From: Dehalococcoidia bacterium
GTDB lineage: Bacteria > Chloroflexota > Dehalococcoidia > Lucifugimonadales > Australimonadaceae
DNA: 64,000 nucleotides
Direction: 5' to 3'
NCBI GenBank assembly: GCA_965200975.1
Contig: OZ241740.1
Coordinates: 1,996,244 to 2,060,243 of the forward strand
The translations under genes and the position numbers were made by a program. The notes beneath the pieces are model-generated. The model was not told where the DNA came from, ran no database searches, and worked only from the letters and a program-made list of their open reading frames with translations. How positions within the stretch are numbered: position 1 is the first letter of the stretch; the number at the start of each line of letters is the position of its first letter. Positions 14,883 to 55,377 of this stretch are shown here, in pieces.

Positions 14883-15015
14883 GGCTGCCAGGGGGTCTGG
14901 GGGAGCGGACGCTCTCCCAGCTGCTACGCAACACCGGCACCGCGCCTGCTCAGAGCACGCCGCCTTGTCGACAACTCCCGGGAGAGAGTTCTCTCCCCCG
15001 GACCCCCTCATTATT
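14883..15015 (+). repeat. REPIN/MITE-like element, copy G (core-deleted short form)
   Basis: Both terminal hairpins are intact. The core is about 35 bp shorter than in copy F. Confidence 0.85.
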
Positions 15016-27892: not shown

Positions 27893-28189
27893 TCACGCCA
27901 TCGCCAGAACCCCCGCCGCCTCGAGCAGCCACCACGCCAGCGACGTGAGGCCCGCGCTCCCGCCGACTACGGCAACGTCCCGGCGGCTCGGACGCCAGCG
28001 CCCATCGTCCCCGCCGAACGGGCGCAGCGGCGGGTCGAGCAGCGCCCGCTCGATGTTCCGCAAACGCGCGTCGATCGCCTCCAGCTTCGCCGTCCACACC
28101 TTGTCCGTCAGATCATGCGCCGTGGCGTGCGCCTCCCGCCCCGCCTCGAGCGACGCCAGCCTCTCGCGCTGCGTCAACGCCGCCGTCAT
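27893..28189 (-). CDS. small phage-associated membrane protein (C-terminal TM)
   Basis: ATG 28189 overlaps the upstream stop (ATGA). MTAALTQRERL...coiled segment...VAVVGGSAGLTSLAWWLLEAAGVLAMA. Confidence 0.5.
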   Translation of the reverse strand: MTAALTQRERLASLEAGREAHATAHDLTDKVWTAKLEAIDARLRNIERALLDPPLRPFGGDDGRWRPSRRDVAVVGGSAGLTSLAWWLLEAAGVLAMA

Positions 28190-29004
28190 GCCGCCCCCAA
28201 ACGGTACGGCTCCAGCAGCATCCGCACGTCCGTGTCCAGGCCCGGCCCCACGTAGAACGGCTCGAACGCCGGTGCCCGAGTCCATATCCGCGCCGCATTG
28301 ATCAGCGCCGCCCGCTCAACCGGCGCCGGCCACCGCACAATCGAGACAGCCGCATTGTCCGCATGCGCCAACGGCCTCGTCCCGTTCAATCCCCGCGTCA
28401 CGGTCAGCGTCTGCGACGACGCCCCGGCGACTAGCATTCGCTCCGCCCCGACGGCGATAGTCTGCCCCGCCGCAAAGTCCGCCGCCCGGTCGACGCTCAG
28501 AGCCTCCGCTGTGCTGCCCACTGCCCCGTCGAGCAGCGAGCCCGAGGGCTCCAGGCGCTCCCGGTACCCCCACAGCCCGGCGATGCGCACTCGGGCCTGA
28601 CCCCGCGAGAACTGCGTCCGCGGCCCCGGCGCTCGAGCGCGCACTGCGTTGTAGGGCGTCCCCCAGTGCGCGGTGGGCGCGGCGTTCAGCGGCAGCAGCT
28701 GATACGCCGACTCCTCCCAGACCGTCTCGTACTCGCCGTCGTCGTTCTCGTCGGTCGCCAGCGACGTAACCGCTATGAGGTCGGGCACGGTCAGCAGGCC
28801 GTCGCCGCTGCCGTCGAAGTAGCGCTCCGCCGTAATCGCGTAGAAGTGCCGGTTGCAGTAGTTGTCCACCGCCTCCGACGCCGCCAGGAGCAGCTGAAAC
28901 AGCGCCGTATCCGCCGAAAGGCCGCTTGCCGGATCGTCAAGCAGCGACGGGTCTTTCAGTTTGCTGAGGTCGCCGTACAGCGACCGGTGCGCCTCGATTG
29001 CCAT
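28186..29004 (-). CDS. phage head-tail connector (gp6-like) protein with C-terminal extension
   Basis: N-terminal ...ALFQLLLAASEAVDNYCNRHFY resembles the gp6-like connector motif. It sits downstream of the capsid gene. Confidence 0.5.
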   Translation of the reverse strand: MAIEAHRSLYGDLSKLKDPSLLDDPASGLSADTALFQLLLAASEAVDNYCNRHFYAITAERYFDGSGDGLLTVPDLIAVTSLATDENDDGEYETVWEESAYQLLPLNAAPTAHWGTPYNAVRARAPGPRTQFSRGQARVRIAGLWGYRERLEPSGSLLDGAVGSTAEALSVDRAADFAAGQTIAVGAERMLVAGASSQTLTVTRGLNGTRPLAHADNAAVSIVRWPAPVERAALINAARIWTRAPAFEPFYVGPGLDTDVRMLLEPYRLGAA

Positions 29005-29007
29005 GCC

Positions 29008-29469
29008 CTAACGCTCCTCGGTGTACTCGACTATCAGCTTGTGCGACGTCGCCGGCGCATACGTCCACCGTATGCTTAGCGGCTCGTTCCGGGCGCCCGC
29101 CGGCCCCGCGCCCCGCCCCCAGGTGCGCGTCGACCCTTGCCCCACGTCCGACACTCGCACGATAGCCACCGCCTTCCTCTCATTCGCTCCGATGCTGGCG
29201 CCCTCGCCAAAGTAGAGCTCGCAAAAGTGCAGGCCGTCGCTCGTAGTCTGGACGATCGTGAGGTTGATGAGCCGCAGCCGCTTCCCTCGCGAGGGCCGAA
29301 GCAGCGTCTGCCGGTCGGTCGACCGCCCCGGGTCGCTGAAGAAGAGCGACATCGTGTCCGAAAGGTCTTCCAGGTAGCCCGGGGTGTACCGGCGCAGCCC
29401 ATCCTGCCGGGCGGAACGCGGACGCACCGCAGGCGTGTATTCGCTTCTCGGTCTCGGTTGTGTCGTCAT
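29008..29469 (-). CDS. hypothetical phage protein
   Basis: In-frame ATG 29469 of ORF 29008..29664: MTTQPRPRSEYTP...LINLTIVQTTSDGLHFCELYFGEG. No family recognised. Confidence 0.5.
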   Translation of the reverse strand: MTTQPRPRSEYTPAVRPRSARQDGLRRYTPGYLEDLSDTMSLFFSDPGRSTDRQTLLRPSRGKRLRLINLTIVQTTSDGLHFCELYFGEGASIGANERKAVAIVRVSDVGQGSTRTWGRGAGPAGARNEPLSIRWTYAPATSHKLIVEYTEER

Positions 29470-29471
29470 CG

Positions 29472-29509
29472 CAAATGAAAAGCCCTCCGGCCTTCTCGAC
29501 CGGAGGGCT
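29472..29509 (-). terminator. Rho-independent terminator after the alpha/beta hydrolase gene
   Basis: The minus strand reads AGCCCTCCGG-tcgagaag-CCGGAGGGCT followed by TTTTCATTT. Confidence 0.8.
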
Positions 29510-29575
29510 CTCCCTCCCTTGATTCTGTGCTGTGCAGCAGCGCGCGTGCGCGTGCGATCGTTGCCCCGCCGCTCT

Positions 29576-30391
29576 CTACGCCAGCAGGAACTCCAGCGCC
29601 ATCTTGTTGAACTGCTCCGCCGCCTGCTGCGGCAGCATATGACCAACTCCCTCGAACGGCGCAAGCCGCGCGCCGGGGATCGCCGCAGCCGTCTGCTCCC
29701 CCATCTCGAACGCGTTCGTCTGGTCGTCCGTGCCCCAGCACACCAGCGTCGGCGCCTTGATGCGCGGCATCCGCCGCAGCGTGTTGTAGCGCGTGCGCGT
29801 GTCCGGATTCGTCATGTGCCGCATCACGCCCGCGAACGCCTCCGCGTGCCCCGGCAGCGAGTTCTTCCGAATGTACGGCGCCGCCACCTTCTCGAGGTTC
29901 ACCGTGCCTTCCGGGAACCGGTTCGCGAACTGCTCCCGGATCTGCTCTTCCGTCGGGACCTTGAACTCCACCATATTCTGCAGAGGACGCGTCGCCGTTC
30001 CCCCGCCTGCAACGTTCACCACCTTGTTTACGCGCTCCGGGCTCTCGTACGAAAGCAGCGTCACGATCCAGCCGCCCATCGAGTGGCCAATGAAGTTCGC
30101 CCGCTCTATGCCGAGAACATCCATCAACTCCCGAACATGGTCCACCAGGTACGCAAACGAGAACTCTTGCTGAAACACGTCGCCTACGCCCCAGTTCAGA
30201 CAGTCGATCGCGAACACGTGAAAGTGCTCCGACAATGGCCCGATGTTGCGCACCCACGACTCGCAGCCGCTCGTCCATCCCGCCCCGTGGATCAGGATCA
30301 CCGGGAATCCCGCGCCGGCTTCCCAATAGCGCGTCTTCCCGTGCGTCATCTCAGCGTACTTCTCCGTCCACACTCTCTCGGCAGTCGTCAT
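29576..30391 (-). CDS. alpha/beta hydrolase (meta-cleavage-product hydrolase-like)
   Basis: In-frame ATG 30391: MTTAERVW...VILIHGAGW...FIGHSMGG (nucleophile elbow GxSxG). Confidence 0.85.
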   Translation of the reverse strand: MTTAERVWTEKYAEMTHGKTRYWEAGAGFPVILIHGAGWTSGCESWVRNIGPLSEHFHVFAIDCLNWGVGDVFQQEFSFAYLVDHVRELMDVLGIERANFIGHSMGGWIVTLLSYESPERVNKVVNVAGGGTATRPLQNMVEFKVPTEEQIREQFANRFPEGTVNLEKVAAPYIRKNSLPGHAEAFAGVMRHMTNPDTRTRYNTLRRMPRIKAPTLVCWGTDDQTNAFEMGEQTAAAIPGARLAPFEGVGHMLPQQAAEQFNKMALEFLLA

Positions 30392-30577
30392 ACGCGCTCC
30401 CCTTGCAGCATTTTGTTGCGGTCGCCGGACGCATAACGCCGCGCCCCGGCGACCGTCTGCTAGCTTACACCAACCCGCGCGCACGCCTCCTCCCCCGGAG
30501 GGCGCGGAGGAGCGCTTGCTCCCCCGCGCCGCTTCCCCGCAACGGAGAAGACCCCGCCGCCCGGCGCGGCGACCGCC

Positions 30578-31903
30578 CTACGACCGCGCGATGTTGTACT
30601 GCAGCGCCGTATGCGTCGCCGTCGACCGGCTCCCCGTGCGCTCCGCAAACGCCGCGCGCATGCTCACCACCATCACGTTCTGACGCTTCTGGATATCCCG
30701 CTCCGTCTCGATCAGCAGCTCCCGCCTGAACCCCTTCCGCCACTGCGTGCGGTTCACCAGAAGCAACCGCCCCTTGTTCGACACGTTCCCCGCCGCCGTC
30801 ACCTTGCCGTCCGTGTCCGCCTCCTGCAGCTGCTCCGACACGATAACCGGCGTCCCTTCCACAGCTCCAAGCTGACCGGTCAGCAGCGTCGCGTGCGGCC
30901 CCAGCTTGTCCACCGTCTGGAAACCCTCGATTCCCACCGCCGCAATGTACGTGTTCACGTCCGTCACGAATGCAAGCTCCGACGGACGAAGCCCGTACTT
31001 CCCTATCTTCCGGCGCAGCTCATTGAACATATCGACCGACGCCGCGGCGTTATGGTTGTTCCGCATACTCGTGTTGTCCACAAGCGGCAGATGCAGGAGC
31101 CCGTCGAACCCGATGAGGAAGTGCGCCGAGCCCGCCGTCGTTTTCGCCAGCGTCCCACCGTCGTAGTTGACGTTCCCCGTCGTCGACTGGTCGGCGTTGA
31201 GGATGACGTCGTCGAGCACCTGAGCCGCGTTCCGCAGCAGCGTCGACCTCACCTCGGCCATCATCGCCGCCACGGAGTCCTCATCCAACTCATACGCCCA
31301 CGGCACCATCCCCACCAGCTCGTGAGCCGTAAGCGTCTGCTTCGCCGTCTTCAGGTCCGTCGCAGTCGCCGCGGTGTTCGCCGCGCCCGGGTACCAGTTC
31401 ACATCTCCCAGCTCCAGCGGAATGTCGAACGGGTTCGAGGGCATCGTCACCGTGTCGAACAGCGACGCCACCGCAGCCTCCGCGTTCACGTCCGCCCACA
31501 ACTGACGCGCCGCCTCCTGCGGCACCAGCTCGTCCCCCGCCCCTGCCGTCGTCGAGTCCATCGCCTTCGCGACGCTCTCCTCCCACGCCCGCAGCGACCG
31601 GGGATCGTAGTCCTGCGGACGGGCCTGCTGAGCCGCCAGCAGGCTCCGGGCGATCGCCACGTCCACCAGGTCGAAACCGTCGAACTTCCCGCCCCGGACG
31701 CGCGCCCGATCGTTCGTCGGACGTCCCAGCAGCGCCTCCCGGCGCGACGCGCGGTCGCGGTCGAGCGTGCGGCGGACCTCGCTCGCCAGCCGTTCCTGCT
31801 CCTCCCGCACGAGCGACAACTCGCGCGTGATCGGGTCGATCCGCTCCCGCACGAACTCCTGCGTCTGCACTATCTCCCGCTGCACTTCTTCGATCACCGT
31901 CAT
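30578..31903 (-). CDS. HK97-family phage major capsid protein with N-terminal coiled-coil (delta-like) domain
   Basis: ATG 31903 with RBS GGGGAGGA. Coiled-coil N-terminus, then ...ELVPQEAARQLWADV...PSNPFDIPL...AYELDEDS. Confidence 0.85.
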   Translation of the reverse strand: MTVIEEVQREIVQTQEFVRERIDPITRELSLVREEQERLASEVRRTLDRDRASRREALLGRPTNDRARVRGGKFDGFDLVDVAIARSLLAAQQARPQDYDPRSLRAWEESVAKAMDSTTAGAGDELVPQEAARQLWADVNAEAAVASLFDTVTMPSNPFDIPLELGDVNWYPGAANTAATATDLKTAKQTLTAHELVGMVPWAYELDEDSVAAMMAEVRSTLLRNAAQVLDDVILNADQSTTGNVNYDGGTLAKTTAGSAHFLIGFDGLLHLPLVDNTSMRNNHNAAASVDMFNELRRKIGKYGLRPSELAFVTDVNTYIAAVGIEGFQTVDKLGPHATLLTGQLGAVEGTPVIVSEQLQEADTDGKVTAAGNVSNKGRLLLVNRTQWRKGFRRELLIETERDIQKRQNVMVVSMRAAFAERTGSRSTATHTALQYNIARS

Positions 31904-32056
31904 ACGTCCTCCCCTACCTGTTGTTCTCTGCACTCGTCGCCGTCCCGGCCTTCTCTTCCGCCCTCCCCTCTGCGCGTCTGGGCCTGTTTCGTCTCGTCCG
32001 CCTCGCCCTCCTGTCTGTTCCCCTCACCCCCAACACGCCGCCCGCCGGCGAGCGGA

Positions 32057-32761
32057 CTACGCCACCAACCGCCGAAGCCGGCGAAGCTCCGCAATCAGCC
32101 GGCGCGCCGCTTCCGGATCGATCGAGTCCGGCGAGGGATCGAACGTGAATATCGACCGCAGCCGCGGCGCCGACACGACTCCGCCGTCGAGCGCCCGCGC
32201 CAGCGCGCCCGGGTTCGCCGGCACCGGCGCCGCGCTCAGCTCCAGCAGCTCCTGGCTCGTGTACTCGATCCCCTCGACCCCGCCGTCGCGCCCCTTCCGG
32301 AACGTGAACGCCCGCGGACGAAACCCGACGCTCACCGCCCGCAGAAACCGCTGCCGGTACAGCGTCTCCACCTCTCGCGCGAACTCTGTCGGCGCAAACT
32401 CGAGCGTCGCCACCAAGCGGCTCCCGTCGACGCCCACCCACGAACTCCGGCCTATCGGCGTTCGCGTGTAGTCGTGCGCCCACAGAAACACCGGGTTCCG
32501 CTTGTACGCCCGCAGATCCCAGCCGTCCGCCCGCACTACGTCCCCCAGACGGTCCACCGTCTCGTCCGACGCCACCACCGTCAGCGGACGCTCCTCGTTC
32601 GGCGACGATGCGTGGTTCACCACGAACTTCTGCACCACGGGAGCGTCGGCCATCCCCCGCCGGTACGCATCCAGCGACTCGTACAGCCGCTCACGCTCCC
32701 ACCGCTCCCGGTCGCTCTCCGACGGCGTCCCGCCGCCTGCCGACATCGTCGTACCCCTCAT
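32057..32761 (-). CDS. HK97-family prohead protease
   Basis: ...VFLWAHDYTRTPIGRS...LRAVSVGFRP.. typical of the prohead serine protease. RBS GGAGGA upstream. Confidence 0.85.
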   Translation of the reverse strand: MRGTTMSAGGGTPSESDRERWERERLYESLDAYRRGMADAPVVQKFVVNHASSPNEERPLTVVASDETVDRLGDVVRADGWDLRAYKRNPVFLWAHDYTRTPIGRSSWVGVDGSRLVATLEFAPTEFAREVETLYRQRFLRAVSVGFRPRAFTFRKGRDGGVEGIEYTSQELLELSAAPVPANPGALARALDGGVVSAPRLRSIFTFDPSPDSIDPEAARRLIAELRRLRRLVA

Positions 32762-32934
32762 CTGCGCTCCTCCATCAGTTGATCGGCTGACTACCCAGCC
32801 ACTTCGACGGCAAACAAAAACCCCGGCCCTCTCGAAAGGGGCCGGGGCTCATCCCCGACGCATCATCGGGCTCCTCGCCCGACGCAACCCAGCATACGTC
32901 CTTGAATGTCAGTTACGCAACAGCATTATGTCGC
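32692..32934. repeat. 243-bp direct repeat, left copy (protease 5' end + RBS + terminator hairpin)
   Basis: Matches 34143-34386 with a handful of mismatches and one 1-nt indel. Confidence 0.95.
32811..32847 (-). terminator. Rho-independent terminator (inside the left direct repeat)
   Basis: The minus strand reads CCCCGGCCCC-tttcgaga-GGGCCGGGG followed by TTTTTGTTTG. Confidence 0.8.
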
Positions 32935-32959
32935 GCTTACTCGTCCGTCCGCGCCGATG

Positions 32960-33229
32960 TCAAATCACTCCCTTCTCACGGAGAAGGGTCAGGTAGCCCT
33001 CGCGGCCCAGCGTGCAGGCAATTGCGTCGCGCAGTTGATCGTCGCTCAACTTCATCTGCTGGCGGATGCTGTGCTGCATCGGCAAGTCCCCGGAGGACTT
33101 CCATGAACGACGAGTGCGCGCTACGACTTTGCCGTCGACTTCGAGCCACGCGAACCGGTGATCGCCTGCTCTCGTCTGGTACCCAAACTTATTGACCAGC
33201 AGGTCGAACTCACGTGCTGAGAGTGGCAT
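32960..33229 (-). CDS. HicA-like toxin candidate
   Basis: ..EFDLLVNKFGYQTRAGDHRFAWLEVDGKVVARTRRSWKSSGDLP.. resembles the HicA pattern (G[SD]H ... H..gdl). Overlaps the upstream ORF by 20 nt. Confidence 0.4.
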   Translation of the reverse strand: MPLSAREFDLLVNKFGYQTRAGDHRFAWLEVDGKVVARTRRSWKSSGDLPMQHSIRQQMKLSDDQLRDAIACTLGREGYLTLLREKGVI

Positions 33230-33623
33230 CGGCCCTGCGGAGCTTGCGGTTGAGCGTAGCCTTCACGGCTGCCAGGTCGGCGCCAAGCCGGCCCTGCTCG
33301 GCCTCAAGCGTGAAGTAGAGTTGGGCAATTGCCGCCTGCAAGTCAGCGAGCGCCGCCGACACGCTGTCGCCGAACCCGAACTCTTTCAATTCCTCAGCTT
33401 CAACAACGACCGAACCAGCTTCCTCCTTCCAGGCGACCTCGAACGGTTCGACTACTCGCAAGCGGCCGTCACGGAGACTTCCCAAGGCGAACTCCCGGGG
33501 AAGCGGGGCCGCCTCGTACGGAGGAATAGCGGGTTCTACCATCTGGCCGAGGGGCGGATTTGAGGAACCTTGGGCGTTCTCATCGTCCAACTGCGGCGGG
33601 AGGGACTCAATGCGGGCTACCAT
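33210..33623 (-). CDS. HicB-like antitoxin candidate
   Basis: ..FEVAWKEEAGSVVVEAEELKEFGFGDSVSAALADLQAAIAQLY.. resembles the HicB N-terminal domain. The C-terminus is coiled-coil, not an obvious HTH/RHH. Confidence 0.4.
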   Translation of the reverse strand: MVARIESLPPQLDDENAQGSSNPPLGQMVEPAIPPYEAAPLPREFALGSLRDGRLRVVEPFEVAWKEEAGSVVVEAEELKEFGFGDSVSAALADLQAAIAQLYFTLEAEQGRLGADLAAVKATLNRKLRRADATLST

Positions 33624-33635
33624 GTTGCCTCCTCC

Positions 33636-34064
33636 TTACTTCTTTGGAACGGCGGGGCGCTGAACGGCATCGAAAAAAGTGGAGCCCAAGAACATCTGAT
33701 TGGCCCATATTTGAAACTCGTACCGGCCTGCCTCAGGGATGGGGACTGGCGAGAAGTCGACGAGGTAATCCGACGAAGCCAATCGATCACCGAAGTTCAT
33801 CTCTCCTTCAGCGCTGGTAAGAATCTCACCTGTACCTGTTCTGACGTACCTGATACTTACAGCATATCGCCCCTCGGCATCGGTAAGCTTAAGGTACACA
33901 GAGACTGGGCGCTTGGTCGGGAATTTATGGACGTTTACTCTGACGAAGATGCCTACCAGGTTCTTCTTCCCTGTGCTGGGATCGACCACGGCAGCATCGC
34001 ATACCAAGGCGGCTACCAGGAATGGCGTTACCTGGCTGAACGGCTGCTCCTCATCCTCGGACAT
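33636..34064 (-). CDS. hypothetical beta-rich protein (reminiscent of DUF6941-type proteins, low confidence)
   Basis: ORF with RBS AAGGAGG. ...PFLVAALVCDAAVVDPSTGKKNLVGIFVRVNVHKFP...; lower GC. Confidence 0.5.
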   Translation of the reverse strand: MSEDEEQPFSQVTPFLVAALVCDAAVVDPSTGKKNLVGIFVRVNVHKFPTKRPVSVYLKLTDAEGRYAVSIRYVRTGTGEILTSAEGEMNFGDRLASSDYLVDFSPVPIPEAGRYEFQIWANQMFLGSTFFDAVQRPAVPKK

Positions 34065-34142
34065 CTCTCAGTGCCTCCTTACCTTGGGTTTTACCATCGC
34101 ACCCCTCGCCGGTCAATTTGCCCCCCTGCCGCTACCCCAAGC

Positions 34143-34386
34143 CACGCTCCCACCGCTCCCGGTCGCTCTCCGACGGCGCCCCGCCGCCTGCCGACATCGT
34201 CGTACCCCTCATCTGCGCTCCTCCATCAAGTTGATCGGCTCACTACCCAGCAACTCCGCCGGCAAACAAAAACCCCGGCCCTCTCGAAAGGGGCCGGGGC
34301 TCATCCCCGACGCATCATCGGGCTCCTCGCCCGACGCAATCCAGCATACGTTCTTGAATGTCAGCTACGCAACAGCATTATGTCGC
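34143..34386. repeat. 243-bp direct repeat, right copy (carries a truncated protease 5' fragment)
   Basis: Matches 32692-32934. The protease fragment reads MRGTTMSAGGGAPSESDRERWER and is fused to GLG-stop. Confidence 0.95.
34264..34300 (-). terminator. Rho-independent terminator (inside the right direct repeat)
   Basis: Same hairpin and T-run as 32811-32847. Confidence 0.8.
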
Positions 34387-34422
34387 AGATAATAATCGCG
34401 GCGGCCAGTAAATCCAGACCGT

Positions 34423-34746
34423 TTACCCCGCAAGCTTGTCCTCGAGATCTTGTATCTGCCGCTCCAACGCCACCTCATGGTTCTTCAACCGGACCATAGC
34501 ATCTCCGTCGTCGCGATCGTACGCCCGCCAGAACTCTGTATCCACAGCCTCCTGCCTTGTGCGCAGAACGAACAACTCGTTCTCGATGTTGCTCTGCTCC
34601 TCCCACCGCTCCCGCAAGTGCGGGAATAGTCTGCGGAGGAAGAACCGGGCAATAGCTGTCGTCTGCGGCCATAGGCCAACGCGAAGGATCGCGAACATAA
34701 TGCCGAAGGCGATCAGCGTCGCCAGTACTGTCTGAACAGCCTCCAT
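34423..34746 (-). CDS. membrane-anchored coiled-coil protein
   Basis: ATG 34746 with RBS GAGGAGAG. MEAVQTVLATLIAFGIMFAILRVGLW (TM), then a coiled coil. ATGA overlap with the upstream ORF. Confidence 0.55.
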   Translation of the reverse strand: MEAVQTVLATLIAFGIMFAILRVGLWPQTTAIARFFLRRLFPHLRERWEEQSNIENELFVLRTRQEAVDTEFWRAYDRDDGDAMVRLKNHEVALERQIQDLEDKLAG

Positions 34747-35018
34747 CACTTCTCTCCTCTCGAAATACGCCGAGCTTCCTCTTGGGCCTCGCGCTGCACT
34801 CGCTTCCTCCACGCCTCTTGTTTGCTGTCGTGCACAACTGTGACGATTGCGATAACCAGCGCCGTTGCGATAGCAGCCCAGACGGTCCACATGCCTGTCG
34901 GTTCGATTCCGAACATCACTTGCCTTCCCTTCTTCTCTTGGCCGGGAAGGATCCCACGGCGCCACGCTTCGTTCACCAGATAATCGTAGAGCTCCTGATC
35001 GTCAACCATCCTCGACAC
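34746..35018 (-). CDS. small single-TM protein
   Basis: ORF 34746..35018 with a central TM, WTVWAAIATALVIAIVTVV. Lower GC. Confidence 0.5.
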   Translation of the reverse strand: MSRMVDDQELYDYLVNEAWRRGILPGQEKKGRQVMFGIEPTGMWTVWAAIATALVIAIVTVVHDSKQEAWRKRVQREAQEEARRISRGEK

Positions 35019-35031
35019 GGACGTCAGCCAC

Positions 35032-35060
35032 TTGACAACGATCGGTGCGTCTGCTATAGA
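35032..35060 (+). promoter_or_regulatory. sigma70-type promoter of the GIY-YIG gene
   Basis: TTGACA (35032-35037), 17-nt spacer, TATAGA (35055-35060), then RBS AGGAGG before ATG 35102. Confidence 0.55.
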
Positions 35061-35101
35061 TGACAGGGTAGTTCAAATCCCAAAACAGCAGGAGGCGCCT
35101 G

Positions 35102-35407
35102 ATGGGCATATTCAATCGAGGTAGGCCTAGCCGCCAGTCTCCACCAAAAGCTCCAGGGGAGTATCGGATCCGCGATAAGGATACCGGGAAGATTAAGTAC
35201 ATCGGCGAGACCAACAATCTGAGCCGACGAGTTAAAGAACACAATCGCGGAAGCTTCCCTTCCAAGGATAATGTGGCCGAATGGCAGCGAGCTGACCGCG
35301 ACAGCACATCCCAGGAGCGCCGGCTGCATGAGAAGCGCAAGATTGATCAGCACCAGCCGCCCATGAACCAGCGGCGGGGAGGCGGCGGCAGGATAGCGGA
35401 CCGCTAG
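35102..35407 (+). CDS. free-standing GIY-YIG nuclease
   Basis: PGEYRIRDKDTGKIKYIGETNNLSRRVKEH contains the GIY...YIG...R motifs. Opposite strand to the phage genes; low GC. Confidence 0.8.
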   Translation: MGIFNRGRPSRQSPPKAPGEYRIRDKDTGKIKYIGETNNLSRRVKEHNRGSFPSKDNVAEWQRADRDSTSQERRLHEKRKIDQHQPPMNQRRGGGGRIADR

Positions 35408-35666
35408 CTGCAGAGGGTGCGAGGCGACAGACAAAGCCCTTAAACCAACGAGGCCGGAGTGATTCCGGCCTCTGCCTCGTTCGCACATTTTGCCAATCTG
35501 CGCCTTAGTCCGGCGCACCTGTTCGCAGAGTTCCTTGGCCTGTCCTGTTTCGCTCATCCTTGGCTGAAGCGGGCTTTGCCTCCTCAAGATGCCTCAGTAG
35601 CAGATCTGCGGCCCCGATCAGGCGTATATCCCGCCCGCCTGCGCCAGTCGCCCTCTCCCCCTGCCA

Positions 35667-36842
35667 CTACCCCAAGCCACGCTCTGCGCGCGCCTCCTCG
35701 ACCGTCATGATCCCCGCCCGCACGAGCTCCACCTGACGCCGAGTCCGCTCCGTTTCCGTCTCCGACAACGCCTCAATCGACCCCAGGTCGAACCCTACCC
35801 GCAAGCCTTGCGCCTGCGGCCCCAGCCGCGGCAGCAGGCTCTCGTTCATCGCTCCCGCCAGAAACGTCAGCTCCGGCACAACCGTCTTCTCCCAGAACAT
35901 CCGGCGCGCCTCCCGCACATTGTTCAGCGTCGCGTGCGAGAAGTCCTCCAGCAACGGAAGCGGAACGCCATACACCCGCGCCACTCCCTCCAGCGCCCAG
36001 CGCAACCCCGAAAGCCACTCCATATCCCGCTGGTTCAATCCCAGGCGGTGCACCTCCCAGCCTTCCCCCGTCACTATCGGACGCTGCGCCCGCGACGTCC
36101 CCACGTGCCGCGCCTCCAGCCGCGAATAGAAGTCCGACACCTGATCGTCCGTCACCGGCCCCCGCGCCCGGAACACCAGGTCCTGCGGCTGCGCCCCGTT
36201 GCGGAAGAACTCCCGGTTGAACCGCAGCGCGTCCATCCCCATATCCGCCGTCAAGCGCGCTGCCGCCAGCGGCGCAAACCCGGCATACTCCTCCAGCGGA
36301 TTGAAGTACCGGAACCACACCACTTCCTCCGGAAGCAACGCCGACTCCTGCCCGTTCTCTTCGTAGACGAACCCCGCCACGTAACGCGACGAGTCCCGCA
36401 CCACCCGCACCCGGTCCGGACGCAGCGCCCACAGCTCGTCCGGCGTCCCCGCCCCGCCCTCCGAGCGCCCCAACCGCCAGAACGCCGCTCCCCACAGGCA
36501 CAGGTGCGTCTCCGTCGCAATCAACAGATCGCTCCGGCTCCACCAGCCGTTCACCCGGTCGAGCAGACGCTGCACCGGATGCTCCGGCCCAACCCAACGC
36601 TCGACCCCCGCAGCGTCCGTCCTGCGCACTTGCAACGGCGGACGCGACACCGCCTCCGCCCGCAGCTTCACCGCCGCGTACACGTCGACGCTGCGCGCGT
36701 AGTACTCCCCGTACGCAGACGACTGCCACTCCGGCCCAACCCCCGCGTCGCCCGAAACTCTCCGCAGCGCGGCCGGCGGCCGGCCAGCCCGCGCCTGCGC
36801 TCCCGCATTCCCGCCCAACAGACCACGCAACGTCCCCAGCAT
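35667..36842 (-). CDS. HK97-family phage portal protein
   Basis: In-frame ATG 36842 with RBS GAGGAGGA. ...YGEYYARSVDVYAAVKLRAEAV...LIATETHLCLWGAAFW.... Confidence 0.85.
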   Translation of the reverse strand: MLGTLRGLLGGNAGAQARAGRPPAALRRVSGDAGVGPEWQSSAYGEYYARSVDVYAAVKLRAEAVSRPPLQVRRTDAAGVERWVGPEHPVQRLLDRVNGWWSRSDLLIATETHLCLWGAAFWRLGRSEGGAGTPDELWALRPDRVRVVRDSSRYVAGFVYEENGQESALLPEEVVWFRYFNPLEEYAGFAPLAAARLTADMGMDALRFNREFFRNGAQPQDLVFRARGPVTDDQVSDFYSRLEARHVGTSRAQRPIVTGEGWEVHRLGLNQRDMEWLSGLRWALEGVARVYGVPLPLLEDFSHATLNNVREARRMFWEKTVVPELTFLAGAMNESLLPRLGPQAQGLRVGFDLGSIEALSETETERTRRQVELVRAGIMTVEEARAERGLG

Positions 36843-36897
36843 CGAACATCCTCCTCGCTCATTCCCTCCACCACTTATCCCCGGCGGCAAAGACCTC

Positions 36898-36936
36898 CCA
36901 GGGGGTCTGGGGGAGCGGACGCTCTCCCAGCTGCGC
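36898..36936 (+). repeat. solo REP-like hairpin (left-end type) between terminase and portal
   Basis: CCAGGGGGTCTGGGGGAGCGGACGCTCTCCCAGCTGC is identical to the left ends of the full elements. Confidence 0.9.
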
Positions 36937-37135
36937 CCCAGCCCTCACTATCGCCGCAGCAGCCGCGCCCCGAGCCACGCCCACCAGCTCGCAGCCCATG
37001 CAGCCCCTAGCGCAACAGCCTCCCACGGAAGCCCCAGATAACTCGCCGCCAGAACCGGCGCCAGCGGCGCCGCTCCCAGCGCCGCAAACACCGCGCAAAG
37101 CTCCGCCCCCGCCTTCACTCCGCCCTTCCCTCGAA

Positions 37136-38475
37136 TCACATCCACACCTCCATCGACGGAGGACTCATGAACGCAAGCGCCAGCGCGTCCGCCTTGTCCG
37201 GCGACGGCAGCCCCGCCTTTCGCAACTCCTCCTTGCTCACTAGCCGGATACGTCCTCCGCTCTCGATCCTGTACCGCAACGACAACAGCTGACCAACGAG
37301 CTCCGGGTCGTCCGGCAGCGCAATCTCCTCCTCCGCCATCCGGCGCCGCAACTCCCAGAAGATCTCCGCCCGCAGGTCCTCGAAACGCTCTTTCAGACGC
37401 GCCCGGCCTCCCGCCTGCACGCCGATCACCGGCGCCCCCAACTCCTTCAAACGGTCCACCACGCCGCCGCCGACCCCCGCCTCGTCCACGAACACCGCCA
37501 CCACCTCTTGCGCATTCACCGCCTCGTTCACTTCCGCCGCTATCCGCATCGTGTCCACTCCCCGGTACACCGCCATCCTCTCGACCCGCGGCCCCCGGCG
37601 CAGACACAGCACCGTCTTGTCGTTGCCGAACCGCGCAACGTCCCCCCCCCATAATCAGGAACGCCCCCTCCGAACGGGCGGCTCCCCGCCCCCAGCGCGC
37701 CACTGCCGCGTCCAACTGCTTGCGCGACACCAGCGAGTCGTCCAGAGCCTCGGGAAACTGCCCCAGCACCGCAATCACATACCGGGAGTCGTCCTCTCCC
37801 CACTCCCGCCGGCGCTCATCCACATCCTCCGGAGTCAGCATCCCCGGCACAGCGTCGGGGCGGCCCGCAACCAGGTTCGGCGTGTCGAACGCCGAGATCG
37901 CCACCCGCGAGTACAGCGCGCTCTTCGAGTGATGCGAGTCGTAGAACTCCCCCGTCAGCGACAACGGGTTGCCGGTGAACAGCAGCCGCTTCGGGTTCAG
38001 CCGCTTCAGAGCGTCGAGGTGGCCCTGCCCCACCGCGTGAGCCTCCGTAACCACCACCAGCAACTCCGGCGAGTGAAACCCCTGCAGGTTGTACGGATGG
38101 TCCGTCGCGAACCCCAGCGCAAACCGCTCGTCGTTCACCACGTACTTCGACGCGTGCATCTTCCCGCTCAGGCTTCGGCCAGCCAGCGCATACGCCAGCC
38201 GAAGCTCCCGCCACACCACCTCCTCCACCTGCCGCTGCGTCGGCCCCGTCACGATCGCCTTCGACTGCAAGCGCGTCTCTATCCACCACAGCACTACCCG
38301 GGCCGCAGCCCAGTCCTTCCCCCGATCCGTTGCATCCCACCACCGACACCCGCCGGTTCGCCGCCACTCGCTCCAGCACTTCCGACTGCTTCCCGTACGG
38401 TCTCCCTCCTTCCCCCAGCACATCCTCCACAAACCCCACCGGATCGTCCGCGTACTGCTCCAGCGCCAGCCCCAT
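37136..38475 (-). pseudogene. terminase large subunit, broken by two frameshifts in G-runs
   Basis: Three ORF pieces. 38475->~38322: ..VVGCNGSG. ~38320->37650: KDWAAARVVLWWIE...GFHSPELLVVVTEAH. 37648->37136: DVARFGNDKTV...VFVDEAGVGGG...SPDKADALALAF. Confidence 0.85.
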
Positions 38476-38503
38476 GAACCCTCCGCCCCTCAGCGTTCAG
38501 CCT

Positions 38504-38656
38504 TCAGTTCCGCAATCGCCCCTCCTCGCACCACGTGTGCTTGCAGAACGGGCACATGAGCACCGCATGCCCTTCCTCCGCAAGCCTGCTCAGCTCCCGC
38601 ATCCCCCGCGCAGCGCAGCGCGGACAGCGCACCTTCTCACGCACTACTGGAGGCAT
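38504..38656 (-). CDS. 50-aa zinc-ribbon protein
   Basis: RBS AAGGAGGGG plus ATG 38656: MPPVVREKVRCPRCAARGMRELSRLAEEGHAVLMCPFCKHTWCEEGRLRN (CxxC...CxxC). Too short for the ORF track. Confidence 0.5.
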   Translation of the reverse strand: MPPVVREKVRCPRCAARGMRELSRLAEEGHAVLMCPFCKHTWCEEGRLRN

Positions 38657-38915
38657 AACCTCGCCCCTCCTTTCCTTTCCCCCGCAGGGCTGCCGCGCCG
38701 GGATGCCCGGCTAGCCCGTGTCGGAGCTCCTTCCCTTCCGCCCGCAAGAGCTGCCCCACTTGGCAATCCTTACGACATGTTCTAGTATCCCTACTGTCAG
38801 ATTAATAACACTATCCCGCCACGGCCCGCCACCGCGCAACCGCCTTCTGTCGCGTCCCCGCGCCGACATCTCCCCGTTGCGCGCTCCCCCAAGCCTCGGA
38901 CAAACTCCAGGAAGG

Positions 38916-39287
38916 ATGCACGCCATGACCACCAGCCCCCAGAACGATCTCGCCGCCTTCCTCAAACGATGGCTCGACGACAAGAAGATGGCGCCCCTCG
39001 CCCTCTCCCGCAGGGCAGGCGTCCCTCACGCCATCCTCAGCGGACTCTTCAACCACGGCAACATCCCTCGCCCTTCCACCCTCCGAAAGCTCGCCGCCGC
39101 TATGGGCATCCCTGTCGGACAACTCCTCGTCGCCGCCAACTACCTCGACGAGGAGGAGTACCAAAACCCCATCCGCGAGACCGACCTCGCCCGCCTCTAC
39201 GAGATCGGCGACCTCACCTCCAACGAATGGGAACAGGTGCGCGACTTCGCCCGCTACGTCCGCGGCAAACGCCGGGCCGAGCCGTAA
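38916..39287 (+). CDS. XRE-family HTH regulator (cI-like)
   Basis: ..LALSRRAGVPHAILSGLFNHGNIPRPSTLRKLAAAMGIPVGQLL. Divergent from the structural genes. Start at 38916 or 38925. Confidence 0.8.
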   Translation: MHAMTTSPQNDLAAFLKRWLDDKKMAPLALSRRAGVPHAILSGLFNHGNIPRPSTLRKLAAAMGIPVGQLLVAANYLDEEEYQNPIRETDLARLYEIGDLTSNEWEQVRDFARYVRGKRRAEP

Positions 39288-39291
39288 CCCC

Positions 39292-39721
39292 TTGCGCGCC
39301 TTCCATCTCGGCAGAGCCATCGCTCAGCGCGAGGGCATCGACTACGACGCAGACCTCGGCCCGCTCCTCGCCAAACTCGGACTCGAGGTCATCCCCTGGC
39401 GCTTCGACGGACGCGTCCGCGAGTTCATCTTCGAAGGCGCCATCGGCGTCGAGGAATCACTCCCCGCCGACTGGCGCCGGTGGGTGACCGCCCACGCCGT
39501 CGGGCACCACCTGCTCCACACCGGCGCAAGCCTCTACCTCGCAACATGGCGGGGAGTCAGCCGGCGCAAGGACGAACGCCAGGCCGAAGAGTTCGCCGCA
39601 GGACTTCCTCGTCTCTCCCTCCGCCGCCGCCAACGCCGGCGAACTCGCCATCGCCCGTCGCTGCAACATCCCCCGCGAAAAAGCCCGCTGGCTCCTCGCC
39701 AACCTCCACAACCCCGCCTAA
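39292..39721 (+). pseudogene. ImmA/IrrE-like metallopeptidase, frame-broken and with HAxxH in place of HExxH
   Basis: ..WVTAHAVGHHLLH...QAEEFAAGL, then a frame change at about 39605 into LVSPSAAANAGELAIARRCNIPREKARWLL, stop 39719-39721. The rest of ORF 39292..40668 is antisense to tlyA. Confidence 0.65.
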
Positions 39722-39888
39722 CCACAATCCCCAAACCCCTCTCTCGCCCCCACTCCCCCACTCCAACCCCCGCGCTTTACCCCTCGCCGCGCTTTACCCC
39801 CCTCCCTCCCGCAGCGGGGGGAGGGTTGGGGAGAGGGGCAGAGAGGGGCAGCTCCGCCACTCCAACCCCCTGCGCTTTACCCCACAAC

Positions 39889-40674
39889 CTACGCCCGCAG
39901 CGCCACGAAAAACTCACGGTTCCCCGCATCCCCGGTCAGACGCGACGCGCGCACCCCCAGCACCCGCAGACCCTCGCCTATCCCCCACAGGCAGAATCCC
40001 CCCACAACCTGCGCATGCGTCGCCGGCGACCGCACAACGCCCCGCGCTCCCGCAGCGCCGCGGCCCGCCTCGAATTGCGGCTTCACCAGCACGACCGCCA
40101 AACCCGGACGCCGCAGGTGACGCAGCGCCTCCGGCAGCACCAACCGCAACGAAATGAACGAAACGTCCGCAACAACAAGGTCCGCCTGCTCCGGCAACTC
40201 GAACGGCGCCCGGGCGTTCACTCCCTCCCGAAACGACACCCGCTCATCCCGCCGAAGCCGCTCCGCCAGCTGACCCCGCCCCACGTCGACTGCATACACG
40301 CGCCGGGCGCCCGCCTGCAGCAGGCAGTCCGTGAACCCTCCCGTCGACGCGCCGACGTCCAGCGCCGTCAGACCCCGAACATCGATCCGGAAGTCCTCGA
40401 GCGCCCCCGCGAGCTTGTCCCCTCCACGGCCCACGAACCGCCGCCGCTCCGCCAGCCGCACATCGGCGTCCGCAGGCAACAGCTGCCCCGGCTTCTCGAC
40501 GCGTCCGTTGGGCAGCAGCGCCTCGCCGGCAAGAATCATCGCCCGCGCCGACTCGCGCGACCGCGCCAGCCCCCGGCTCACCAGCAGCTGATCAGCCCGC
40601 TCCCGCCTCACCCGCAACCTCCTCGCTGCGCCTGCTCCCCGAACTATAACGAGGAGAAGACTAGTTAGTATCAC
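39889..40674 (-). CDS. tlyA: TlyA-family rRNA 2'-O-methyltransferase (start uncertain)
   Basis: ..RADQLLVSRGLARSRESARAMILAG (S4) ...FVGRGGDKLAGAL...ALDVGASTGGFTDCLLQAGA. Confidence 0.88.
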   Translation of the reverse strand: MILTSLLLVIVRGAGAARRLRVRRERADQLLVSRGLARSRESARAMILAGEALLPNGRVEKPGQLLPADADVRLAERRRFVGRGGDKLAGALEDFRIDVRGLTALDVGASTGGFTDCLLQAGARRVYAVDVGRGQLAERLRRDERVSFREGVNARAPFELPEQADLVVADVSFISLRLVLPEALRHLRRPGLAVVLVKPQFEAGRGAAGARGVVRSPATHAQVVGGFCLWGIGEGLRVLGVRASRLTGDAGNREFFVALRA

Positions 40675-55343: not shown

Positions 55344-55377
55344 CGCGGAACGCAATCTCGCAGCTCCTCAGGAGCTC

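What the first reader, a model, noticed from the sequence alone, without database searches (positions are those of the whole stretch)
32692..35683. Portal-protease junction is a nested insertion hotspot bounded by 243-bp and 27-bp direct repeats
A 243-bp segment (terminator hairpin, RBS and the first ~23 protease codons) occurs at 32692-32934 and again at 34143-34386. In the right copy the protease fragment ends ..ERWER and is fused to GLG-stop plus cggcagggggg. That same 27-nt string (CCCCCTGCCRCTACCCCAAGCCACGCT) forms the 3' end of the portal gene at 35657-35683 and also occurs at 34121-34148. The crossover sits on the shared heptamer GAGCGTG. The simplest reading involves two related phages. 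Each would have carried a different cargo between portal and protease, and illegitimate recombination stacked both cargos (34387-35666 and 32935-34142) while regenerating an intact protease.
Basis: seen in the sequence. Interest (0 to 1): 0.65.

Follow-up and report, generated by a model that had tools for sequence, protein, structure and literature searches.

The report
Recombination scar stacking two gene cargos
Between the portal and protease genes of a tail-less, phage-derived head-gene island in a Dehalococcoidia genome, two unrelated accessory-gene blocks sit in tandem, joined by a scar that shows a misaligned recombination between two variants of the island; it is a clean example of a known process, not a new kind of system.

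Summary
The protease-fragment::portal-tail junction is also present in independent short-read unitigs, so it is not an assembler artefact.

The repeat is more than a terminator plus RBS. It is a regulatory cassette found upstream of the protease in all but one of the relatives examined: promoter-like hexamers, a leader, a strong terminator-like hairpin, the RBS and the protease start. Its upstream edge is the family's cargo/backbone boundary. Its downstream edge is the crossover on the heptamer GAGCGTG.

In Dehalococcoidia/Chloroflexota relatives the portal-protease gap ranges from about 0.17 kb (empty) to 3.7 kb, with different cargos. One relative carries cargo B directly after an intact portal gene.

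The best explanation is one out-of-register, microhomology-mediated (homology-facilitated illegitimate) recombination between two strain-level variants with different cargos.

- The element is a tail-less, integrase-less head-gene island. It sits at the same chromosomal locus in three genomes and is under purifying selection, so it is not an evident phage.
- The cargos are tandem, not nested.

This is a known kind of event, and interest is moderate.

The parts
35667..36842 (-). Portal gene (391 aa; the longest ORF extends to 36890). It ends ...ARAERGLG*.
   Evidence: Pfam Phage_portal 1e-65; 77-91% aa identity to portals of Dehalococcoidia/Chloroflexota MAGs; the exact product was called on Logan contig L031.
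35657..35683 (-). 27-nt portal tail (AGCGTGGCTTGGGGTAGTGGCAGGGGG on the minus strand): the last codons, the stop and 10 nt beyond. This is the original copy.
34387..35656 (.). Cargo A. It holds a 101-aa stand-alone GIY-YIG nuclease domain (35102-35407, + strand, convergent with the portal), a hairpin at 35450-35472, and two translationally coupled small genes on the minus strand (34746-35018, 90 aa; 34423-34746, 107 aa). GC is 54-62%, against 67-72% in the backbone.
   Evidence: Pfam GIY-YIG 1.3e-7; match to the UvrC N-terminal domain 1yd6 over residues 14-89; composition. The 107-aa protein has no homologue among 5.8 billion proteins other than itself.
34143..34386 (-). R243 right copy (244 nt). 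It carries the conserved GCGACA edge; -35-like TTGCGT (34367-34372); -10-like TATGCT (34343-34348); a leader hairpin (34318-34334); the GGGGATGAG motif; a terminator-like hairpin with T-run (34263-34299); the RBS (34218-34224); and the first 23 protease codons.
34132..34212 (-). Chimeric 26-codon ORF MRGTTMSAGGGAPSESDRERWER|GLG*: protease N-terminus fused to the portal C-terminus. The crossover heptamer GAGCGTG is at 34143-34149.
   Evidence: The junction is contained in short-read unitig L027 at 100% identity.
34122..34148 (-). Second copy of the 27-nt portal tail (26/27 identical). It is a relic of the donor island's portal 3' end.
32935..34121 (-). Cargo B. It has its own promoter-like site, TTGACC (34111-34116), 14 nt, then TGGTAAAAC (34088-96), i.e. 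17 nt to the TAAAAC -10-like hexamer. It then carries a DUF6941 protein (33636-34064), a 137-aa gene (33210-33623) and an overlapping 89-aa gene (32960-33229).
   Evidence: Pfam DUF6941 7e-15. The same gene order follows a real portal gene in L030, and the 137+89 pair follows the portal in L002/L003. The promoter hexamers are conserved in L030. The AlphaFold model (pLDDT 88.6) is an Ig-like beta-sandwich.
32692..32934 (-). R243 left copy (243 nt), the working upstream region of the protease: -35-like 32915-32920; -10-like 32891-32896; leader hairpin 32866-32882; terminator-like hairpin with T-run 32811-32847; RBS 32767-32773; protease ATG at 32761; heptamer 32692-32698.
   Evidence: The same cassette architecture lies upstream of the protease in L001, L005, L014, L017-L022.
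32057..32761 (-). Intact prohead protease (S78, 234 aa).
   Evidence: Pfam Peptidase_S78; about 80% identity over the full length to the L001 and L005 proteases.
27893..39700 (-). The island that hosts the junction. On the + strand: C1-type HTH (38718-39287) and an M78 peptidase-like gene. On the - strand: a 50-aa Zn-ribbon ORF, TerL (37136-38432, two frameshifts), portal, cargos, protease, HK97 capsid (30578-31933), esterase (29576-30484), a 153-aa gene, a head-tail adaptor (28186-29004) and a 130-aa gene. It has no tail, lysis, integrase or replication genes.
   Evidence: Flanking host genes are syntenic with L001/L002.

Best explanation
The region is the scar of one out-of-register recombination between two closely related (at least 96% identical) variants of the same tail-less head-gene island. 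Variant X carried portal - cargo A - cassette - protease. Variant Y carried portal - cargo B - cassette - protease.

Proposed event. DNA of Y paired with X through the homologous cassette/protease/capsid backbone, which served as the anchor. Its other end was joined illegitimately on a 7-bp GC-rich microhomology, GAGCGTG. That heptamer occurs by chance both at the end of the portal gene (..AER|GLG*) and at protease codons 22-23 (..WER|ERL). This is homology-facilitated illegitimate recombination; between two co-resident copies it would be an unequal crossover.

Product: portal_X - cargo A - cassette_X - protease'(1-23)::portal_Y'(GLG*) - cargo B - cassette_Y - intact protease. This explains every boundary:
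- The repeat starts at GCGACA because that is where backbone homology between islands with different cargos begins.
- The repeat ends at the crossover.
- The 27-nt repeat is the donor's portal tail.

Why this site (inferred). The portal stop and the cassette are less than 20 nt apart in the empty-site relative. The cassette appears to restart expression of protease and capsid with its own promoter-like element, terminator-like hairpin and RBS. DNA of any content and orientation can therefore sit there without polar effects.

Shown: the repeats, the junction, read-level support, the family-wide variable gap, the conserved cassette, and a cargo-B-after-portal relative.

Inferred: the order of events, the DNA-entry route, promoter and terminator activity, and cargo function (unknown; a GIY-YIG nuclease, small membrane-like proteins, a DUF6941 beta-sandwich, a possible two-gene module).
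For: - Repeats and junction.
- Read-level support. The chimeric junction and both cargo/cassette joints are present in Logan k=31 unitigs from several sequencing runs. L027 equals window 34172->32858 at 100% identity. It begins 30 nt (k-1) before the first base that differs between the two copies and ends where the copies become identical. L031 equals 36923->34310. A 7-nt overlap cannot create a k=31 join.
- Backbone breaks. Homology to relatives breaks exactly at the portal stop (35667) and resumes at protease codon ~12 or later (blastn). The gap is about 0.17 kb in L021 and up to 3.7 kb in L001, with unrelated contents.
- Cassette. It is conserved in 9 relatives although the surrounding non-coding DNA has diverged. 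The terminator-like hairpins fold at -31 to -53 kcal/mol, z -3.1 to -7.6.
- Copy differences. The 9 differences between the two window copies all avoid the hexamers, hairpins and RBS. A rough chance estimate is (155/243)^9, about 0.02.
- Donor-type arrangement exists. L030 has portal, 120 nt, DUF6941, then the 137-aa gene. L002/L003 have portal, then the 137+89-aa pair.
- Foreign origin. Cargo GC is 54-62% against 67-72% in the backbone.
- Chromosomal, allelic setting. Host genes on both sides are syntenic with L001/L002 at 73-89% aa identity.
- Established knowledge (mine, not tested here). HFIR in naturally transformable bacteria joins foreign DNA at 3-10-bp GC-rich microhomologies next to a homologous anchor. 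Phage mosaicism by illegitimate recombination and morons are also established.
Against: - No relative with cargo A alone was found. Cargo A's 107-aa protein is an orphan, so variant X is inferred only from the window itself.
- No other family member shows a comparable duplicated-cassette scar, so this is a single event, not a recurrent mechanism.
- Short-read unitigs confirm each junction but cannot phase the two R243 copies. The A-then-B order rests on the long contig alone.
- The window's TerL has two homopolymer frameshifts, so the assembly may carry indel errors.
- Promoter and terminator activity of the cassette is predicted only. The -35/-10 hexamers match the sigma-70 consensus poorly: my own count is 7 of 12, below the scan's threshold of 9, and the scan found no promoter-like site. 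The terminator stem shows no covariation.
Confidence: 0.75

Rival explanations
1. Two-step origin within one island. First, a microhomology-mediated tandem duplication of the segment from the portal tail to protease codon 23 (replication slippage or unequal sister exchange on GAGCGTG). Later, the cargo in one copy was replaced by homologous recombination with a variant island.
For: The junction and repeats would be the same. Variant islands with other cargos exist.
Against: It needs two rare events instead of one. The replacement would require a homologous crossover in the portal-tail homology, which is only 27-43 nt (D4). It also gives no particular reason for the 3.7% divergence spread along the whole R243, including its promoter-distal part.
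Confidence: 0.1
2. Campbell-type route. In the donor island a circle [portal tail - cargo B - cassette - protease'] looped out on the GAGCGTG microhomology. It then integrated into the recipient by a single homologous crossover within the 243-bp cassette. This yields the same product.
For: Integration of a circle through a homologous segment produces exactly a direct repeat of that segment around the insert, and the circle junction would be the observed chimera.
Against: It requires transfer and survival of a non-replicating 1.45-kb circle. No excision or integration functions are present in the island or the cargos. The sequence cannot distinguish it from the main model.
Confidence: 0.07
3. 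Assembly artefact: two strain haplotypes (A-only and B-only) were concatenated by the assembler, or a repeat was expanded.
For: The source is evidently a metagenome-assembled chromosome: the exact cargo proteins are on a 2.38-Mb contig. TerL has two frameshifts in G-runs, typical of long-read indel errors. The two R243 copies differ as two alleles would.
Against: The diagnostic chimeric junction (protease codon 23 joined to the portal tail) lies inside conservative k=31 unitigs from independent runs at 100% identity. The only sequence shared by the joined partners is 7 nt, far below any assembler's overlap. Unitig ends fall exactly where two genuine repeat copies would create branches.
Confidence: 0.03
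4. Cargo insertion by a dedicated mobility mechanism. One version is a site-specific recombinase acting on the 27-mer as an att site. Another is a transposon with target duplication. A third is homing driven by the cargo-A GIY-YIG nuclease, whose double-strand break was repaired with a mismatched template.
For: A GIY-YIG nuclease gene sits in cargo A between two conserved genes, as free-standing homing endonuclease genes of phages do (the comparison rests on my own knowledge). The site is hit repeatedly in the family.
Against: - There is no integrase, transposase or terminal inverted repeat in either cargo.
- The sequence after the portal stop differs in every relative, so there is no conserved att site.
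- A 243-bp target duplication fits no known transposon.
- The GIY-YIG protein is only the 101-aa catalytic domain, with no DNA-binding domain. Its closest family member lies beside a host gene outside the island in L018.
- A break-triggered version is compatible with the main model rather than a rival to it.
Confidence: 0.05

Closest known systems
Morons and mosaic joints of tailed phages, as in lambdoid phages and mycobacteriophages (my own knowledge; not tested against those genomes here)
   Same: Accessory gene blocks with deviating GC and their own promoter-like signals are inserted between two genes that are adjacent in relatives. The joints lie at gene boundaries. New joints form on a few bases of microhomology. 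Selection keeps only products in which the essential genes stay intact.
   Different: The out-of-register product retained both parental cargos plus a duplicated 243-nt regulatory cassette and a gene-fragment fusion. Such intermediates are expected but are rarely seen preserved. The host element is a tail-less chromosomal island in Dehalococcoidia, not a known phage.
Homology-facilitated illegitimate recombination (HFIR) in bacterial transformation (mechanism mentioned in PMC6382021 and PMC8116780; details are my own knowledge)
   Same: There is one homologous anchor (cassette, protease and beyond) and one illegitimate joint at a short GC-rich microhomology (7 bp). The result is integration of foreign DNA next to the anchor.
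   Different: Nothing is known about DNA uptake or recombination in this uncultured lineage. The donor could equally have been a second copy in the same cell. No experiment was possible.
Accessory and defence-gene hotspots of prophages and satellites, such as P2/P4-type hotspots (my own knowledge)
   Same: A fixed intergenic position in a conserved element carries different cargo in each genome. Cargos include a defence-like NsnB/AriA-type ATPase in L026 and TA-like pairs.
   Different: None of the window's own cargo proteins matches a known defence family (PADLOC gave only two weak GIY-YIG hits). The hotspot lies inside the head-gene operon, between portal and protease.
Capsid-forming PICIs (bioRxiv 10.1101/2025.02.11.637232; PMC10085698) and gene transfer agents
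   Same: The island encodes TerL, portal, protease, HK97 capsid and a head-tail adaptor, but no tail or lysis genes. Its genes are under purifying selection (dN/dS 0.04-0.25). It is syntenic in three genomes.
   Different: No integrase, replication or small-terminase gene was recognised. Nothing indicates induction or packaging. In some genomes the genes are scattered. Membership of either class is not established.

Membership tests
Moron-type accessory insertion | Lies between two genes that are adjacent in related elements | tested here: met
   L021 has the portal stop, about 18 nt, the cassette, then the protease (about 0.17 kb, no gene). Other relatives have 0.7-3.7 kb of unrelated genes.
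Moron-type accessory insertion | Base composition differs from the backbone | tested here: met
   GC is 53-62% in the cargos against 67-72% in the portal, protease and capsid genes.
Moron-type accessory insertion | Own promoter and terminator | tested here: inconclusive
   Cargo B is preceded by TTGACC-N17-TAAAAC with an upstream TG, conserved in L030. Each cargo is followed by a copy of the terminator-like hairpin. The consensus scan found no sigma-70 site, and there are no expression data.
Illegitimate / homology-facilitated illegitimate recombination joint | Joint on a few bases of microhomology between otherwise unrelated sequences | tested here: met
   GAGCGTG (7 nt) is shared by the portal 3' end and protease codons 22-23. 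The sequences differ on both sides of it.
Illegitimate / homology-facilitated illegitimate recombination joint | Extended homology (anchor) on one side only | tested here: met
   There are 243 nt at 96.3% identity plus the downstream protease on one side. On the other side there is only the 27-43-nt portal tail.
Illegitimate / homology-facilitated illegitimate recombination joint | Parental arrangements exist | tested here: inconclusive
   The portal-then-cargo-B arrangement was found (L030, L002/L003). A cargo-A-only parent was not found.
Illegitimate / homology-facilitated illegitimate recombination joint | Dependence on RecA and DNA uptake | not testable with these tools
   The lineage is uncultured and no experiment was possible.
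Site-specific recombination cassette (integron- or integrase-type) | Recombinase gene in or next to the element | tested here: not met
   No integrase or recombinase appeared in the Pfam, PHROG, NCBIfam or PADLOC scans of the island and cargo proteins.
Site-specific recombination cassette (integron- or integrase-type) | Conserved attachment sequence at cargo boundaries across the family | tested here: not met
   The sequence after the portal stop differs in every relative. The 27-mer occurs only in the window.
Transposable element insertion | Transposase, terminal inverted repeats, short target duplication | tested here: not met
   There is no transposase in cargo A or B and no terminal inverted repeats. 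The duplication is 243 nt. True IS insertions occur in relatives L016 and L018 and look different.
Free-standing GIY-YIG homing endonuclease | GIY-YIG catalytic domain plus a DNA-binding domain | tested here: not met
   The protein is 101 aa and covers only the catalytic domain (Pfam; UvrC N-terminal domain 1yd6). The L018 homologue is also about 100 aa and lies next to a host gene.
Capsid-forming PICI | Head and packaging genes without tail genes | tested here: met
Capsid-forming PICI | Integrase, regulatory and replication modules; helper-dependent induction | tested here: not met
   Only a C1-type HTH and an M78 peptidase-like gene flank the head genes. No integrase or primase was found in the window or in relatives. 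Induction is not testable.
Gene transfer agent / domesticated head module | Vertical inheritance at a fixed locus with purifying selection | tested here: inconclusive
   Synteny on both sides was found in the window, L001 and L002, and dN/dS is 0.04-0.25. Other relatives have different contexts. Tail genes and particle production were not assessable.
Assembly artefact | Junction absent from raw-read level data | tested here: not met
   The junction is contained in k=31 unitigs from independent runs.

The most novel reading that the evidence does not exclude
The island may be a domesticated, vertically inherited tail-less head module (GTA- or cf-PICI-like) of Dehalococcoidia. On this reading the portal-protease gap is a dedicated cargo dock. 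The conserved promoter/terminator cassette acts as a portable insulator and recombination handle. Out-of-register exchange between cassette-bearing alleles then stacks, and later deletes, accessory modules, much as an integron does but without a recombinase.
Probability: 0.12. Interest if true: 0.7.

Novelty: new member of a known kind. Interest (0 to 1): 0.38.

Why it matters
Models of phage mosaicism propose that new gene combinations arise from rare, sloppy, out-of-register joins, and that almost all such products are lost. Here one product is preserved with both parental cargos, the duplicated regulatory cassette and the gene-fragment fusion still legible. A parent-like relative and read-level confirmation are also available. 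It therefore serves as a clean natural example.

It also maps a permissive cargo site, and a conserved regulatory cassette, in a previously undescribed family of tail-less head-gene islands of Dehalococcoidia. That family may deserve study in its own right.

Nothing here changes current understanding of the mechanisms.

Tried and rejected
- Phage GenBank records: blastn of the 7.9-kb head region found no match.
- IMG/VR viral contigs: no cassette pattern and no portal relative.
- JGI metagenome contigs: no cassette pattern.
- Rfam: nothing at gathering thresholds in the whole window. Only sub-threshold sRNA-like hits (E 0.09-0.26) fell on the cassette.
- tRNA genes as possible att sites: none.
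- Cargo function: PADLOC, NCBIfam, PDB sequence searches and permissive Pfam scans gave no function for the cargo proteins beyond GIY-YIG and DUF6941. My guess that the 89-aa protein is HicA-like found no support.
- DUF6941 fold search: only generic Ig-like beta-sandwich matches, TM 0.4-0.5.
- Duplicated-cassette or portal-tail scars in relatives' gaps: none found; only LRR repeats and chance matches.
- Terminator stem: no compensatory changes, so covariation gives no structural proof.
- Cargo-A homologues: none beyond the source population.
- Literature: searches found no description of these Dehalococcoidia islands.
- The protease's exact sequence is not on record, so the source contig could not be fetched directly.

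Full report
**1. Observation**

All relevant genes run on the minus strand: TerL (37136-38432), portal (35667-36842), S78 protease (32057-32761) and HK97-type capsid (30578-31933).

- The repeat finder and a direct alignment confirm a long direct repeat at 32692-32934 and 34143-34386.
- The copies are 243 and 244 nt. They differ by 8 substitutions and one T/TT indel, giving 96.3% identity.
- The 27-mer at the portal 3' end (35657-35683) recurs at 34122-34148 with one mismatch. Neither it nor any 3-mismatch variant occurs elsewhere in the window or in 100 shuffles.
- Read on the coding strand, the right copy ends in a 26-codon ORF, MRGTTMSAGGGAPSESDRERWER|GLG*. This is protease codons 1-23 joined to the last three portal codons, the stop and the first nucleotides of the portal's downstream region.
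- The join lies in GAGCGTG, which is present at 35678-35684, 34143-34149 and 32692-32698.

**2. Not an assembly artefact**

The exact cargo proteins are on record on a 2.38-Mb contig and on short Logan contigs from several sequencing runs.

- L027 (SRR33960550) is 100% identical to window 34172->32858. It starts 30 nt (k-1 for k=31) before the first base that distinguishes the fusion from the true protease. It runs through the chimeric junction and all of cargo B. It stops 77 nt into the left R243 copy, where the two copies become identical.
- L031 (SRR33960552) matches 36923->34310 with one mismatch. It covers the portal, cargo A and the first 77 nt of the right copy, with that copy's own variants.
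- Unitigs make no joins without a shared 30-mer, and the joined partners share only 7 nt. The junction therefore exists in reads.
- The unitigs cannot show the phase of the two copies. That rests on the long contig.

**3. What the element is**

The head genes belong to an island of about 11.5 kb (about 27.9-39.7 kb).

- On the + strand it carries a C1-type HTH repressor-like gene and an M78 peptidase-like gene.
- These are divergent from a 50-aa zinc-ribbon ORF, TerL, portal, protease, capsid, an esterase/lipase, a 153-aa gene, a head-tail adaptor and a 130-aa gene.
- No tail, lysis, integrase or replication gene is present. The other large ORFs scanned in the 64-kb window are housekeeping-type genes.
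- Portal homologues at 66-89% identity are all from Dehalococcoidia/Chloroflexota MAGs.
- In L001 and L002 the island lies between the same host genes as in the window: yidC/rnpA/FtsJ on one side and PmbA-TldD/HEAT/NUDIX on the other. Host proteins are 73-89% identical.
- The head genes have dN/dS of 0.04-0.25, with dS near saturation.

So this is an old, selectively maintained, tail-less head-gene island rather than an evident phage. Whether it is a satellite, a GTA-like element or a slowly decaying prophage is open.

**4. The hotspot**

Nucleotide homology between the window and L001, L005 and others runs up to the portal stop codon (35667). It resumes only at about protease codon 12. Gap contents across 12 loci:

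| Locus | Portal-protease gap |
|---|---|
| L021 | about 0.17 kb, no gene |
| L022 | a 165-aa gene |
| L005, L014 | DUF7700 on the opposite strand |
| L018 | a weakly RelE-like / DUF2283 pair plus DUF7700 |
| L016 | DUF7700 plus an IS, which deleted the cassette |
| L025 | a 50-aa gene plus a GNAT acetyltransferase |
| L001 | the L025 genes plus a 783-aa LRR protein |
| L026 | a 156-aa gene plus an NsnB/AriA-like ATPase |
| window | 2.9 kb (cargo A plus cargo B) |

In L017, L019, L020 and L006-L013 the island is split at this same point.

**5. What R243 is**

Upstream of the protease, nine relatives share one architecture although the sequence between the motifs has diverged:

- G(C/T)GACA;
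- 8 nt, then GTTGCGT;
- 17-18 nt, then TAnnCTG;
- a variable leader that usually forms a hairpin;
- the invariant CGGGGAYRAG;
- a 9-13-bp GC stem followed by a T-run;
- GGAGG and ATG.

The hairpins fold strongly (-31 to -53 kcal/mol; z -3.1 to -7.6). No Rfam family matches. The stem is conserved in sequence and shows no covariation.

I read this as a promoter-like element with a leader terminator. It would be a regulated restart point for protease and capsid expression. This is inference: the hexamers are weak by sigma-70 standards, and the consensus scan did not flag them.

Two facts matter for the finding:
- Both window copies begin exactly at GCGACA. That is the cargo/backbone boundary seen when L021 (empty site) is compared with L022 (occupied site).
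- The nine differences between the copies all fall outside the hexamers, hairpins and RBS. A rough chance estimate is about 0.02.

**6. The donors**

- L030 carries a genuine portal 3' end (87% identical to the window's). About 120 nt later come a DUF6941 gene (73% identity) and the 137-aa gene, which is cargo B directly after a portal.
- L002 and L003 carry the portal followed by the 137- and 89-aa pair (61% and 88% aa identity).
- Cargo B's upstream TTGACC-N17-TAAAAC is conserved in L030.
- The portal tail attached to cargo B in the window is 26/27 identical to the window's own portal tail. It is unlike L030's. The donor was therefore a strain-level variant of the same island. This fits the 96% identity of the two cassettes.
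- Cargo A's 107-aa protein has no homologue outside the source population, so an A-only relative was not found.

**7. Mechanism**

The most economical account is a single out-of-register exchange between variant X (cargo A) and variant Y (cargo B). It was anchored by the homologous cassette, protease and capsid. It was closed on the chance heptamer GAGCGTG, which both genes contain because both encode Glu-Arg there.

For a chromosomal island this is the signature of homology-facilitated illegitimate recombination. For two co-resident copies it is an unequal crossover.

The product keeps an intact protease behind a complete cassette, so it is viable. The 26-codon fusion ORF and the second cassette are by-products. 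The site tolerates any cargo, in either orientation, because the cassette lies less than 20 nt from the portal stop and appears to make downstream expression independent of read-through (inferred).

Direct repeats of 243 bp placed 1.45 kb apart should delete cargo B by homologous recombination. The arrangement is therefore probably recent or selected (inference).

**8. Rivals**

- A duplication followed by cargo replacement needs two events and a crossover in only 27-43 nt of homology.
- A loop-out circle integrating through the cassette gives the same product and cannot be separated from the main model by sequence.
- An assembly artefact is contradicted by the unitigs.
- Site-specific, transposon or homing mechanisms lack a recombinase, a conserved att site or inverted repeats.
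- The GIY-YIG protein is a bare 101-aa catalytic domain. Its nearest relative sits beside a host gene in L018. A nuclease-induced break could still have triggered the event.

**9. Comparison with known systems, and novelty**

This behaves like a moron/accessory-gene hotspot, with a mosaic joint made by illegitimate recombination. Both are long known. What is less common is the preservation of the out-of-register product with both cargos, plus a parent-like relative and read-level support.

The island resembles the packaging module of capsid-forming PICIs or a GTA, but it fails or cannot be tested on their other defining features. I rate the finding as a new member of a known kind, with moderate interest.

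The more novel reading is a domesticated head module with a recombinase-free cargo dock. It is not excluded but is unsupported beyond synteny and purifying selection.

**10. Cargo function**

Function remains unknown.
- Cargo A: a GIY-YIG nuclease domain and two small, coupled, hydrophobic-segment proteins.
- Cargo B: a DUF6941 protein and an overlapping 137/89-aa pair without family matches. The DUF6941 protein has a confident Ig-like beta-sandwich model with only generic matches.
- A defence or addiction role is a guess. It rests on the defence-like and TA-like occupants of the same site in relatives.

Noticed in passing
window 37136-38432 (frameshifts near 38310 and 37648): The large terminase gene is broken by two frameshifts relative to the intact 421-444-aa genes of relatives. 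Both lie in G homopolymers (GGGGG and a run of nine G). This is either long-read indel error or a real pseudogene, which would mean the island can no longer package DNA in this genome.
   Followed up: partly
window 1846-1874, 2117-2145, 3500-3528, 14639-14667, 14885-14913, 36895-36923, 55376-55404, 62320-62348: A dispersed repeat with core CTGGGAGAGCGTCCGCTCCCCCAGACCCCCTGG occurs 8 times, always on the minus strand. It is hairpin-forming and REP-like. Five copies share about 80-100 nt of extended homology. One copy lies inside the island, between TerL and the portal.
   Followed up: partly
window 27893-39700; loci L001, L002, L005, L014, L016: The head genes form a tail-less, integrase-less island. 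It lies at the same chromosomal locus in the window, L001 and L002, with dN/dS of 0.04-0.25. This may be a domesticated (GTA- or satellite-like) module in Dehalococcoidia.
   Followed up: partly
L006-L013 (portal at 10001-11180 in most): Intact portal genes stand alone among host genes (L013) or apart from the other head genes (L006-L012). They still show dN/dS of about 0.10 between each other. A lone portal under purifying selection is unexplained.
   Followed up: partly
window 29576-30484: An alpha/beta-hydrolase (esterase/lipase) gene is conserved at 87-90% aa identity between the capsid and head-completion genes in all complete islands. This is an unusual fixed member of a head-gene operon.
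   Followed up: no
window 38504-38656: A 50-aa ORF with two CxxC pairs (zinc-ribbon-like) lies just upstream of TerL and is conserved in L002. It is a candidate small regulator of the island's promoters. Any link to the cassette is speculation.
   Followed up: no
window 32848-32856 and 34300-34308; same position in L001, L005, L014, L017-L022: The motif CGGGGAYRAG immediately 5' of the terminator stem is almost invariant across the family. It could form a small hairpin (GGGG/CCCC) that competes with the terminator's 5' arm. It may be an antitermination or protein-binding site.
   Followed up: partly
L016 7448-9813; L018 6680-8347: IS elements have hit the same region in relatives. In L016, an IS-like pair of ORFs (527 and 345 aa) replaced the cassette up to the protease start. 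In L018, a transposase-like ORF (555 aa) truncated the portal gene.
   Followed up: no
L001 11239-14625 versus L025 3382-4147: L001's cargo equals L025's cargo (a 50-aa gene plus a GNAT acetyltransferase) with a 783-aa leucine-rich-repeat protein added on the portal side. This is a second case of cargo stacking at this site, but it has no duplicated scar.
   Followed up: partly
window 39292-40668: The 458-aa ORF is probably not one gene. Only its first ~104 residues (M78 peptidase-like) are conserved. Residues ~206-415 run antisense to a conserved FtsJ-like host gene (39889-40674, minus strand).
   Followed up: partly
L026 3673-5509: In this relative the portal-proximal cargo is an NsnB/AriA-like AAA ATPase (PADLOC 2e-44) with a 156-aa partner (weak PIN hit). 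This is a defence-system candidate at the hotspot.
   Followed up: no
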